NCBI GenBank assembly: GCA_009914755.4
Contig: CP086569.2
Span: forward strand, 480,001 to 544,000
Reading direction: 5' to 3'
Source of the DNA: the human T2T-CHM13v2.0 reference genome, Homo sapiens
DNA length: 64,000 nucleotides
The notes under the pieces are model-generated. The model searched no databases. It was given only the letters and a program-made list of their open reading frames with translations, and was not told the origin of the DNA. Position numbers and translations under genes: made by a program. Positions 20,157-21,513 of this stretch are shown piece by piece (within the stretch, counting starts at the first letter, position 1; the number at the start of each line of letters is the position of its first letter).

Positions 20157-21513
20157 TTTAGAGACGGAATTTCAATCTTGTTGCCCAGGCTGGAGTGCAG
20201 TGGCACAATCTCGGCTCACCGCAACCTCCGCCTCCCGGGTTCAAGCCATTCTCCTGCCTCAGCCTCCCGAGTAGCTGGGATTACAGGCACCTGCCACCAG
20301 GCCTGGGTAACTTTCTGGTATTTTTAGTAGAGACAGGGTTTCAGCCTCCCGAGTAGCTGGGATTACAGGCACCTGCCACCAGGCCTGGGTAACTTTCTGG
20401 TATTTTTAGTAGAGACAGGGTTTCAGCCTCCCGAGTAGCTGGGATTACAGGCACCTGCCACCAGGCCTGGGTAACTTTCTGGTATTTTTAGTAGAGACAG
20501 GGTTTCAGCCTCCCGAGTAGCTGGGATTACAGGCACCTGCCACCAGGCCTGGGTAACTTTCTGGTATTTTTAGTAGAGACAGGGTTTCGGCCTCCCGAGT
20601 AGCTGGGATTACAGGCACCTGCCACCAGGCCTGGGTAACTTTCTGGTATTTTTAGTAGAGACAGGGTTTCGGCCTCCCGAGTAGCTGGGATTACAGGCAC
20701 CTGCCACCAGGCCTGGGTAACTTTCTGGTATTTTTAGTAGAGACAGGGTTTCGGCCTCCCGAGTAGCTGGGATTACAGGCACCTGCCACCAGGCCTGGGT
20801 AACTTTCTGGTATTTTTAGTAGAGACAGGGTTTCAGCCTCCCGAGTAGCTGGGATTACAGGCACCTGCCACCAGGCCTGGGTAACTTTCTGGTAGTTTTA
20901 GTAGAGACAGGGTTTCGGCCTCCCGAGTAGCTGGGATTACAGGCACCTGCCACCAGGCCTGGGTAACTTTCTGGTATTTTTAGTAGAGACAGGGTTTCGG
21001 CCTCCCGAGTAGCTGGGATTACAGGCACCTGCCACCAGGCCTGGGTAACTTTCTGGTATTTTTAGTACAGACAGGGTTTCGGCCTCCTGAGTAGCTGGGA
21101 TTACAGGCACCTGCCACCAGGCCTGGGTAACTTTCTGGTAGTTTTAGTAGAGACAGGGTTTCAGCCTCCCGAGTAGCTGGGATTACAGGCACCTGCCACC
21201 AGGCCTGGGTAACTTTCTGGTATTTTTAGTACAGACAGGGTTTCGGCCTCCTGAGTAGCTGGGATTACAGGCACCTGCCACCAGGCCTGGGTAACTTTCT
21301 GGTAGTTTTAGTAGAGACAGGGTTTCAGCCTCCCGAGTAGCTGGGATTACAGGCACCTGCCACCAGGCCTGGGTAATTTTTTTGCATTTTTGGTGGAGAC
21401 AGTTTTTTGCCGTGTTGGCCCGGCTGGCCTCAAACTCCTGACCTCAGGTTGACCTGCCCGCTTTGTCCCTCGCAAAGTGCTGGGATTACAGGCGTGAGCC
21501 ACCGCACCTGGCC
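20157..21513 (-). mobile_element. Alu (antisense) carrying a roughly 14-copy internal tandem expansion of an 82-bp unit (about 20262-21410). The unit is agcctcccgagtagctgggattacaggcacctgccaccaggcctgggtaactttctggtatttttagtagagacagggtttc.
   Basis: The 5' and 3' Alu ends are intact (gagacggaatttcaatcttgttgcccaggctggagtgcag ... gcgtgagccaccgcacctggcc). Between them the 82-bp segment repeats with only a few differences (t/g in ggtatt/ggtagt, c/t in cccgag/cctgag, cagcct/cggcct). Confidence 0.95.

What the first reader, a model, noticed from the sequence alone, without database searches (positions are those of the whole stretch)
20157..21513. Single Alu expanded internally into a 14-copy 82-bp tandem array (1.36 kb) just 3' of SHOX exon 6a
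The Alu termini are normal. However, the segment agcctcccgagtagctgggattacaggcacctgccaccaggcctgggtaactttctggtatttttagtagagacagggtttc, which spans the A-rich linker region of the Alu in antisense, is reiterated about 14 times with only sparse variant positions. This implies recent expansion or ongoing unequal exchange. Such Alu-internal minisatellites are uncommon. This one lies within or just past the SHOXa 3' UTR in a region where small deletions and duplications are clinically screened (MLPA probes), so its length polymorphism could confound copy-number assays or affect 3' end processing.
Basis: seen in the sequence. Interest (0 to 1): 0.5.

Follow-up and report, generated by a model that had tools for sequence, protein, structure and literature searches.

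The report
Alu-derived 82-bp minisatellite downstream of SHOX
One old Alu repeat about 250 bp past the last exon of the human growth gene SHOX has had an 82-bp internal piece copied head-to-tail 14 times; the array is real, is already listed in a published catalogue, is shared with chimpanzee, and looks like an ordinary, slowly reshuffling minisatellite with no sign of function.

Summary
TRF finds an 82-bp repeat of 14.0 copies (97% match, no indels) at 20259-21402. It sits inside one full-length minus-strand AluS-like element (20150-21514) with a perfect 10-bp target-site duplication. The window is human SHOX.

The array starts about 360 bp past the end of exon 6a. It is therefore outside the annotated SHOXa 3' UTR and inside the introns removed from the exon-7 and exon-6b isoforms.

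The locus is already catalogued. Ahmed & Liang 2012, Table S3, lists it at hg19 chrX:607927-609157 (and chrY) with the same consensus and 15.01 copies, one unit more than here.

Orthologues give the history:
- Macaque: 1 copy.
- Siamang: 2 copies, with nearly the same junction.
- Orangutan: region lost by Alu-Alu deletion.
- Chimpanzee: about 15 copies in two haplotypes with different internal order.

So the expansion predates the human-chimp split and is not recent. Human units are much more alike (1.5 differences per unit) than chimp units (about 4). No unit type is shared between the species. That is concerted evolution by unequal exchange or slippage.

The array has no PRDM9 motif, no unusual folding and no ORF. 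Verdict: a known kind, a known locus, low interest.

The parts
20140..20149 (.). Left copy of the target-site duplication, GAATCTGAAC
   Evidence: Perfect 10-bp match to 21515-21524. Conserved in chimp and siamang; recognisable in macaque.
20150..20260 (-). 3' part of the host Alu: degenerate A-tail remnant plus the distal right monomer (consensus about 184-286). Not repeated.
   Evidence: Alignment to Alu consensus. Sub-threshold Metazoa_SRP hit at 20159-20307 on the minus strand.
20261..21326 (-). Thirteen homogeneous 82-bp units, each equal to Alu consensus 104-183 (end of left monomer, A-rich linker, start of right monomer). Unit-type map: a a a a b b b c b d e f e.
   Evidence: TRF. Exact 82-bp register and variant map. 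Mean 1.49 differences per unit pair; every variant is present in at least 2 units.
21000..21376 (-). Perfect 164-bp (two-unit) higher-order periodicity at the 3' end of the array, indicating that the latest event was a two-unit block duplication
   Evidence: No mismatches at lag 164 from 21000 onward.
21327..21408 (-). Terminal (14th) unit. Its first 50 nt are identical to the array units. Its last 32 nt carry the older TAATTTTTTTGCA variant plus a few human-specific changes.
   Evidence: The same variant is in the chimp terminal unit and in internal chimp units.
21409..21514 (-). 5' part of the host Alu (left monomer, consensus about 1-103). Not repeated.
   Evidence: Alignment. Sub-threshold Metazoa_SRP hit at 21394-21512 on the minus strand.
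21515..21524 (.). Right copy of the target-site duplication, GAATCTGAAC
17468..19900 (+). Context: SHOX exon 6a. The CDS runs to the stop codon ending at 17713, followed by the 3' UTR. The end is placed from the published exon length of 2433 bp.
   Evidence: Splice reconstruction gives the exact SHOXa protein. Exon length from PMC3063249. hg19 transcript end 607,558 from PMC4971310.
31859..31903 (+). Context: coding part of SHOX exon 6b ([14 protein letters not shown]). The array therefore lies inside the exon 5 to 6b intron.
   Evidence: Acceptor plus a 14-codon ORF with a strong pyrimidine tract. The position agrees with the hg19 coordinates and with the GRCh38 gene span.

Best explanation
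This is a neutral, Alu-derived minisatellite (VNTR).

An AluS-type element inserted here before the Old World monkey-ape split. An 82-83-bp segment spanning the A-rich linker was later duplicated in tandem. The breakpoints share only 2-3 bp of microhomology (TC/A), which points to replication slippage or microhomology-mediated repair.

Once two copies existed, out-of-register pairing allowed unequal sister-chromatid or interhomologue exchange, gene conversion and slippage. These processes grew the array to about 15 units before the human-chimpanzee split. They have kept adding, deleting and overwriting units since then.

That turnover homogenised the human array, so that species-specific variants spread across units. 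Total length stayed at 14-15 units. The edge unit, anchored to unique flank, kept an older variant.

The array sits in intronic or downstream DNA of SHOX in PAR1, a region of very high male recombination that probably accelerates the turnover. It has no detectable function of its own.

Shown: the anatomy, the orthologue copy numbers and the concerted evolution. Inferred: the molecular mechanism of initiation and turnover, and neutrality.
For: Array and host Alu anatomy.

The locus is listed as an Alu-derived tandem repeat with an identical consensus and 15.01 copies in hg19. The window has 14.0 copies.

The window is a human haplotype distinct from GRCh38. Its ATG-to-SHOXb-stop span is 27,704 bp, against 27,157-27,932 bp in four human assemblies and 29,177-29,667 bp in chimp.

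Orthologues:
- Eight macaque X/Y loci have a single unexpanded Alu, with about 317-320 bp between the flanks.
- Siamang X and Y have two units with junction GGGTTTCC|AGCCTCCC.
- Three orangutan loci lack window ~19230-21160 through fusion with the upstream Alu.
- Chimp T2T Y-PAR has 15.0 copies at 94% match. Clint X has about 15 units in a different order.

Concerted evolution:
- Within human, 1.49 differences per unit. Within chimp, about 4. Between species, about 4.
- No exact unit type is shared between the species. Seven are shared between the two chimp haplotypes.
- Every human unit is nearest to another human unit.
- There are no private substitutions in 1066 bp of human units.
- Block duplications of 1 and 2 units are visible in both species.

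Junction microhomology is only TC/A.

No PRDM9 motif, no excess ssDNA structure, no ORF of 80 aa or more.

Literature: Alu-derived tandem repeats number 2,663 in hg19 and are reported to expand in situ over time (PMC3389668). PAR1 has extreme male recombination and a very hot SHOX hotspot (PMC4102438).
Against: - Only two human alleles were compared (this window and the hg19 catalogue entry), so polymorphism rests on a one-unit difference. An assembly miscount in either cannot be fully excluded.
- The siamang junction differs by one base (83-bp versus 82-bp unit), so a shared origin of the first duplication is parsimonious but not proven.
- The near-identical copy number in human and chimp (14-15) despite full sequence turnover is not predicted by a purely drifting array. 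It could hint at a length constraint, or be coincidence with only 4 haplotypes.
- Gorilla and bonobo could not be retrieved.
- Neutrality is inferred from the absence of motifs and was not tested.
Confidence: 0.82

Rival explanations
1. Parallel expansion. The Homo-Pan ancestor had only a short array (about 2-5 units), and the human and chimpanzee lineages expanded independently to about 15 units.
For: No exact unit type is shared between the species, and the human units form their own tight cluster. Siamang has only 2 units. Arrays of this kind can grow quickly: the neighbouring 132-bp Alu-derived array has 5.2 copies in human and more than 17 in chimp.
Against: Both species end at 14-15 units in all four haplotypes. 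Both major unit variants (TAACTTTCTGGTA and TAATTTTTTTGCA) and the identical 82-bp junction occur in both species, so the ancestor already had several differentiated units. Reaching the same size twice by chance is less parsimonious.
Confidence: 0.12
2. Recent, human-specific expansion of a previously single-copy Alu segment.
For: The human units are very homogeneous: 97% match, and no private substitutions in 13 units.
Against: Chimpanzee has the same array with about 15 copies in two independent assemblies. Siamang already carries the duplication. The homogeneity is explained by turnover within an old array.
Confidence: 0.02
3. Assembly artefact. The array, or its copy number, results from collapse or expansion during assembly.
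For: Tandem arrays of about 1.2 kb are error-prone in older assemblies. Clint's chimp assembly shows a noisy 23-bp stretch inside the array. The one-unit difference between this window and hg19 could in principle be a miscount.
Against: The array appears with the same period, junction and consensus in hg19, in this window and in two chimp assemblies, one of them T2T. The register is a perfect 82 bp with a coherent variant structure.
Confidence: 0.03
4. Functional element. The array influences SHOX isoform choice, for example through cryptic splice signals repeated 14 times in the sense strand of the 6a-to-7 and 5-to-6b introns. Alternatively it acts as a PAR1 meiotic recombination or axis element, like the mouse mo-2 minisatellite.
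For: Copy number is similar in human and chimp despite sequence turnover. Each unit carries a donor-like TGG|GTAACT, created by a C-to-G change absent in siamang and orangutan, followed by a pyrimidine-rich TTTCTGGTATTTTTAG. PAR1 PRDM9 peaks are often minisatellite-like arrays (PMC4102438), and repeats are enriched in PAR1 DSB regions (PMC9575207).
Against: There is no PRDM9 motif in the array even with one mismatch. Orangutan deleted the whole region and macaque never expanded it, yet SHOX is conserved in both. Durand 2011 describes no exon from this interval. No expression or binding data were available.
Confidence: 0.05

Closest known systems
Alu-derived minisatellites / TE-derived tandem repeats (Jurka & Gentles 2006, Gene 365:21; Ahmed & Liang 2012, PMC3389668)
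   Same: A partial Alu segment is repeated head-to-tail in situ inside one Alu that keeps its termini and TSD. It expands locally over evolutionary time and is only partly shared with other primates. This very locus is entry TRDB 169559076/169736404 in their Table S3. The unit overlaps the AluS regions they found most often repeated, 59-137 and 176-206.
   Different: The copy number (14-15) is far above the reported mean of about 2.3 units; only about 8% of AluS-derived repeats exceed 3 units. The boundary microhomology is only 2-3 bp, not the 5-20-bp direct repeats of the Haber-Louis model. They labelled the TE AluY, but its presence in macaque and a better fit to AluSx suggest an AluS.
Classical human minisatellites / VNTRs (Jeffreys loci such as MS32, CEB1, B6.7, MS1)
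   Same: It is a tandem array with interspersed variant repeats. Alleles differ in length and in internal unit order (two chimp haplotypes). Block duplications are visible. The edge unit is more divergent. The location is subtelomeric/pseudoautosomal, close to a very hot recombination hotspot.
   Different: The unit is long (82 bp), only 53% GC, and lacks any PRDM9/core-like motif or strand-specific structure. The length range seen so far is narrow (14-15), unlike hypervariable loci.
SVA (SINE-VNTR-Alu) VNTR domain
   Same: It is a primate-specific tandem array related to Alu-type sequence that varies in copy number.
   Different: It is not a composite retrotransposon. There is no CCCTCT hexamer region, no SINE-R and no SVA-type 35-50-bp units. 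The array arose in place inside an ordinary Alu with its own TSD.
Mouse PAR mo-2 minisatellite arrays (cited in PMC9575207)
   Same: It is a tandem array located in a pseudoautosomal region with an obligate male crossover.
   Different: Nothing here indicates binding of axis or DSB factors. The array is a single 1.1-kb locus, absent or unexpanded in macaque and orangutan.

Membership tests
Alu SINE (single insertion) | Dimeric 7SL-derived structure of about 280-300 bp with an A-rich linker | tested here: met
   The collapsed element aligns to consensus 1-286 at 86-88% to AluSx (consensus from memory). Sub-threshold Metazoa_SRP hits fall at both ends on the minus strand. The catalogue maps the unit to Alu 184-104.
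Alu SINE (single insertion) | Flanking target-site duplication and a 3' A-tail | tested here: met
   Perfect 10-bp TSD GAATCTGAAC. The A-tail survives only as the degenerate remnant AAAGAGAAAC. The same insertion site is present in chimp, siamang and macaque.
Minisatellite / VNTR | Head-to-tail repeats with a unit of about 10-100 bp | tested here: met
   TRF: period 82, 14.0 copies, 97% match, no indels.
Minisatellite / VNTR | Copy number or internal structure varies among alleles | tested here: met
   14.0 copies here against 15.01 in hg19. The chimp X and Y-PAR haplotypes have different unit orders. Only two human alleles were compared, so the human population range is unknown.
Alu-derived minisatellite initiated between short direct repeats (Jurka-Gentles / Haber-Louis model) | The repeated segment is bounded by direct repeats of about 5-10 bp in the progenitor | tested here: not met
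   The boundaries CCTC|AGCC and TTTC|(A/G)CC share only TC(A), 2-3 bp. Initiation more likely involved microhomology or slippage. Membership in the broader class of Alu-derived tandem repeats is unaffected.
PRDM9-motif minisatellite (PAR1 binding-peak type, Hinch 2014) | Multiple copies of CCNCCNTNNCCNC within the array | tested here: not met
   No exact match in the array. No match even with one mismatch between 19233 and 22187.
SVA retrotransposon | CCCTCT hexamers, Alu-like region, VNTR, SINE-R and poly(A), in that order | tested here: not met
   The sequence between the TSDs is entirely Alu consensus 1-286 plus repeats of positions 104-183.
mir-1268 microRNA precursor (Rfam RF04277) | Score at or above the family gathering threshold (83 bits) | tested here: not met
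   There is one hit per unit at 32-46 bits, all far below 83. The resemblance reflects the Alu origin of that family.

The most novel reading that the evidence does not exclude
The array is kept at about 14-15 units in both human and chimpanzee while its sequence has been completely turned over. It would therefore be length-constrained because it does something. One possibility is that it tunes the choice among the SHOX 3' exons (6a versus 7 versus 6b) through 14 repeated donor-like and acceptor-like motifs in the sense strand. Another is that it serves as one of the tandem arrays that promote the obligatory male PAR1 crossover.
Probability: 0.04. Interest if true: 0.6.

Novelty: already known. 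Interest (0 to 1): 0.18.

Why it matters
The practical importance is limited. The array is a real, slightly length-variable 1.1-1.2-kb block about 360 bp beyond SHOX exon 6a. Anyone designing PCR, Southern or long-read assays across the 6a-to-7 interval, or interpreting small indel calls there, should expect alleles differing by multiples of 82 bp.

It is not inside the annotated 3' UTR. Nothing suggests it affects 3'-end formation or MLPA-type assays.

As an evolutionary example it is tidy: 1 copy in macaque, 2 in siamang, about 15 in chimp and human, and deleted in orangutan. It shows concerted evolution inside an Alu-derived minisatellite in the highly recombining PAR1. The phenomenon, and this locus, are already in the literature.

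Tried and rejected
1. Scans of metagenome contigs and genome contigs for a 27-nt unit-specific pattern, looking for stray human or primate copies. Both returned 0 hits.

I worked around this with the search for homologous proteins and the listing of cluster members.

3. Nine look-ups of P0121, the exact human/Homininae SHOXa. Only two returned DNA: chimp Y-PAR L014 and Clint X L015. A direct human-human unit-map comparison and the gorilla state are therefore missing.

4. The idea that the divergent terminal half-unit marks a mutation hotspot at the array boundary. Rejected. Four of its 8 differences are an old unit variant shared with the chimp terminal unit and with chimp internal units. The remainder are in line with ordinary PAR1 human-chimp divergence of 2-4% in the flanks.

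5. The idea that two different Alus recombined to make the element. Rejected because of the perfect TSD and the shared insertion site in four other primate lineages. That kind of event did happen in orangutan.

6. PRDM9-motif array: rejected.

7. Hairpin- or structure-driven instability: no support, z about 0.

8. A coding ORF through the array: none of 80 aa or more.

9. The position of the sperm-typed SHOX hotspot (May et al. 2002) relative to the array. The paper is not held, and secondary sources give no coordinates.

Full report

Yes. Tandem Repeats Finder reports a single array at window 20259-21402 with period 82, 14.0 copies, 97% matches, no indels and score 2148.

Cutting the region every 82 bp from 20261 gives 13 units that differ at only four positions (1 A/G, 8 C/T, 61 T/G, 70 G/C). 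The 14th, terminal unit (21327-21408) matches the others over its first 50 nt and differs at 8 of its last 32 nt. The unit-type map is a a a a b b b c b d e f e + terminal.

From 21000 onward the sequence is perfectly periodic at 164 bp, so the most recent event was a two-unit block duplication. Every variant occurs in at least two units. There is no private substitution in 1066 bp.

**2. What is the host element?**

With the extra units removed, the element aligns end to end with an Alu consensus (positions 1-286) on the minus strand.

A perfect 10-bp target-site duplication, GAATCTGAAC, lies at 20140-20149 and 21515-21524. Rfam gives sub-threshold 7SL (Metazoa_SRP) matches on the minus strand at 20159-20307 and 21394-21512, which are the two Alu monomers. 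It also gives one weak hit per unit to the Alu-derived mir-1268 family, all far below the gathering score.

The repeated unit corresponds to Alu consensus 104-183. That covers the end of the left monomer, the A-rich linker and the first ~50 nt of the right monomer.

**3. Where is it relative to SHOX?**

The window encodes the exact 292-aa SHOXa protein from these exons: 4200-4476, 7920-8128, 13954-14011, 14132-14220, and 17468-17713 for the coding part of exon 6a.

Exon 6a is 2433 bp long (Durand et al. 2011, PMC3063249), which places its end at about 19900. Independently, NM_000451.3 ends at hg19 chrX:607,558 (Marchini et al. 2016, PMC4971310), and the array begins at hg19 607,927.

The Alu therefore starts about 250 bp, and the array about 360 bp, beyond the annotated 3' end. 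It is just past the SHOXa 3' UTR and not within it.

Exon 7 (variants 7-1, 7-2, 7-3) lies further downstream. The exon 6b coding segment ([14 protein letters not shown]) is at 31859-31903. The array is therefore intronic, in the sense orientation, for the 6a-to-7-1, 5-to-7-2/7-3 and 5-to-6b splice forms.

The only canonical poly(A) hexamer between the stop codon and 22500 is an ATTAAA at 18617.

**4. Is it already known?**

Yes. Ahmed & Liang 2012 (PMC3389668) catalogued 7,276 TE-derived tandem repeats in hg19, of which 2,663 derive from Alu.

Their Supplementary Table 3 lists this locus as chrX:607927-609157 and chrY:557927-559157. The entry gives unit 82 bp, 15.01 copies, 98% identity, matched TE Alu on the minus strand at positions 184-104, and a consensus identical to the TRF consensus obtained here. 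The class itself was first described by Jurka & Gentles 2006 (cited).

In that survey the mean array had about 2.3 units, and only about 8% of AluS-derived arrays exceeded 3 units. This array is in the long tail for copy number but is not a new kind of object.

Two further Alu-derived arrays lie within 10 kb in this same window, at 28915-29608 and 29797-30230.

**5. Which genome is the window, and does length vary?**

The span from the ATG to the SHOXb stop is 27,704 bp in the window. Four human assemblies on record have 27,932 (GRCh38), 27,674, 27,452 and 27,157 bp, and chimpanzees have 29,177-29,667 bp.

The window is therefore a human haplotype that is not GRCh38. It carries 14.0 copies where hg19 has 15.01, a one-unit difference (1144 bp versus 1231 bp). 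This is direct but thin evidence for length polymorphism, since it rests on two alleles.

**6. Orthologues**

I reached primate SHOX loci through SHOX protein look-ups.

- **Macaque.** Eight X/Y loci from four assemblies carry the same insertion with a single, unexpanded copy. The flanks are about 317-320 bp apart.
- **Siamang.** X and Y both carry two units (83 + 82 bp) with the junction GGGTTTCC|AGCCTCCC. This is one base different from the human junction GGGTTTC|AGCCTCCC.
- **Orangutan.** Three loci from two species lack window ~19230-21160. The upstream Alu (18952-19229) is fused to the target Alu, which is an Alu-Alu recombination deletion. There is no 82-bp array.
- **Chimpanzee.** The T2T Y-PAR haplotype has 15.0 copies at 94% match. 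Clint's X has about 15 units, including a noisy 23-bp stretch, arranged in a different order.

The first duplication is therefore most parsimoniously older than the ape radiation. The expansion to about 15 units predates the human-chimp split. The 'recent expansion' reading is not supported.

**7. Dynamics**

| Comparison | Mean differences per unit pair |
|---|---|
| Within the human array | 1.49 |
| Within each chimp array | about 4 |
| Between species | about 4 |

- No exact unit type is shared between human and chimp. Seven are shared between the two chimp haplotypes.
- Every human unit has another human unit as its nearest neighbour.
- The G at unit position 1 is present in 7 of 13 human units and absent from both chimp haplotypes, so it spread within the human lineage.
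- Conversely, T or A at position 8 dominates in chimp units.
- Both major 3'-half variants, TAACTTTCTGGTA and TAATTTTTTTGCA, occur in both species. In human the second survives only in the terminal unit.

This is the textbook signature of concerted evolution by unequal exchange, conversion or slippage. The edge unit escapes homogenisation because it is anchored to unique flank.

My initial idea of a mutation hotspot at the boundary was dropped. The terminal-unit differences are an old variant plus ordinary PAR1 divergence; the flanks are 96-98% identical to chimp.

**8. Mechanism**

The progenitor boundaries (CCTC|AGCC and TTTC|(A/G)CC) share only 2-3 bp. Initiation therefore fits microhomology-mediated slippage better than the model based on 5-10-bp direct repeats.

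The array contains no PRDM9 13-mer, even allowing one mismatch. Neither strand of the unit folds better than shuffled controls. No ORF of 80 aa or more crosses the array.

Turnover is therefore most simply driven by homology between units. It is probably accelerated by the extreme male recombination rate of PAR1 and by the nearby, very hot SHOX hotspot (PMC4102438). I could not place that hotspot relative to the array.

**9. Function**

Nothing indicates one. Macaque never expanded the array and orangutan deleted it, yet SHOX is intact in both.

Two features keep a small door open. First, copy number is similar in human and chimp despite complete sequence turnover. Second, each unit carries a donor-like TGG|GTAACT, created by a C-to-G change absent in siamang and orangutan, next to a pyrimidine-rich ...TTTTTAG in the sense strand. 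I rate a functional role at about 4-5%.

**10. Verdict**

The element is a single Alu with an internal 82-bp array just past exon 6a, and it is length-variable with ongoing exchange.

The locus is an already catalogued Alu-derived minisatellite. The added value here is its evolutionary history: 1 copy, then 2, then about 15, deleted in Pongo, and homogenised in Homo.

Main gaps: no gorilla or bonobo sequence, and no second human allele at sequence level.

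Noticed in passing
window 28915-29608; chimp L014 29982-32678: A second Alu-derived tandem array (period 132 bp, roughly one Alu monomer). It has 5.2 copies in this human window and about 18-20 copies in the chimpanzee T2T Y-PAR. It is far more length-divergent between species than the 82-bp array, and it accounts for much of the longer chimp SHOX gene span.
   Followed up: partly
window 29797-30230: A 79-bp array of 5.5 copies (93% match), built from the 3' end of an Alu, its poly(A) tail and about 25 bp of flank. 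It is a third Alu-associated tandem repeat within 10 kb.
   Followed up: no
window 15825-17110; chimp L014 16956-18131: A GC-rich 27-bp minisatellite in SHOX intron 5, ending about 350 bp upstream of exon 6a. It has 47 copies in this window and 43 in chimp.
   Followed up: no
window 40767-41348: A CCTCC/CCCCT-rich array with a dense cluster of near-matches to the PRDM9 13-mer CCNCCNTNNCCNC. The window as a whole has 219 matches with one mismatch or fewer, against 75 expected. This is a candidate PRDM9-binding minisatellite of the kind Hinch et al. describe in PAR1.
   Followed up: no
window 19840-19900: The annotated end of SHOX exon 6a (NM_000451.3) falls just after a genomic A9(GA)n run. No AATAAA or ATTAAA lies nearby; the only one between the stop codon and 22500 is at 18617. 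The RefSeq 3' end may reflect internal oligo-dT priming and not a true poly(A) site.
   Followed up: partly
orangutan L003/L004/L005 (e.g. L005 ~25150-25600) versus window 19230-21160: Both orangutan species lack about 1.9 kb, including the distal ~670 bp of the human exon 6a 3' UTR. The cause is recombination between the Alu at 18952-19229 and the array-bearing Alu. The fusion product also carries a ~135-bp internal duplication.
   Followed up: partly
window 20258-21375, minus strand: Rfam reports 14 sub-threshold hits to the mir-1268 precursor family (32-46 bits against a gathering score of 83), one per unit. They reflect the Alu origin of that miRNA family and are not evidence of a miRNA cluster.
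   Followed up: yes
gene spans (ATG to SHOXb stop): Four human assemblies differ by up to 775 bp in SHOX span (27,157-27,932 bp), and this window has 27,704 bp. SHOX introns therefore hold several length-polymorphic repeats beyond the 82-bp array. Compared with hg19, the window is about 235 bp shorter upstream of the array and about 94 bp longer downstream; the upstream figure rests on an hg19 start-codon coordinate recalled from memory.
   Followed up: partly
chimp L014 36364-38459: A 294-bp array of 7.1 copies (98% match) lies downstream of chimp SHOX exon 6b. I did not check whether human has it.
   Followed up: no
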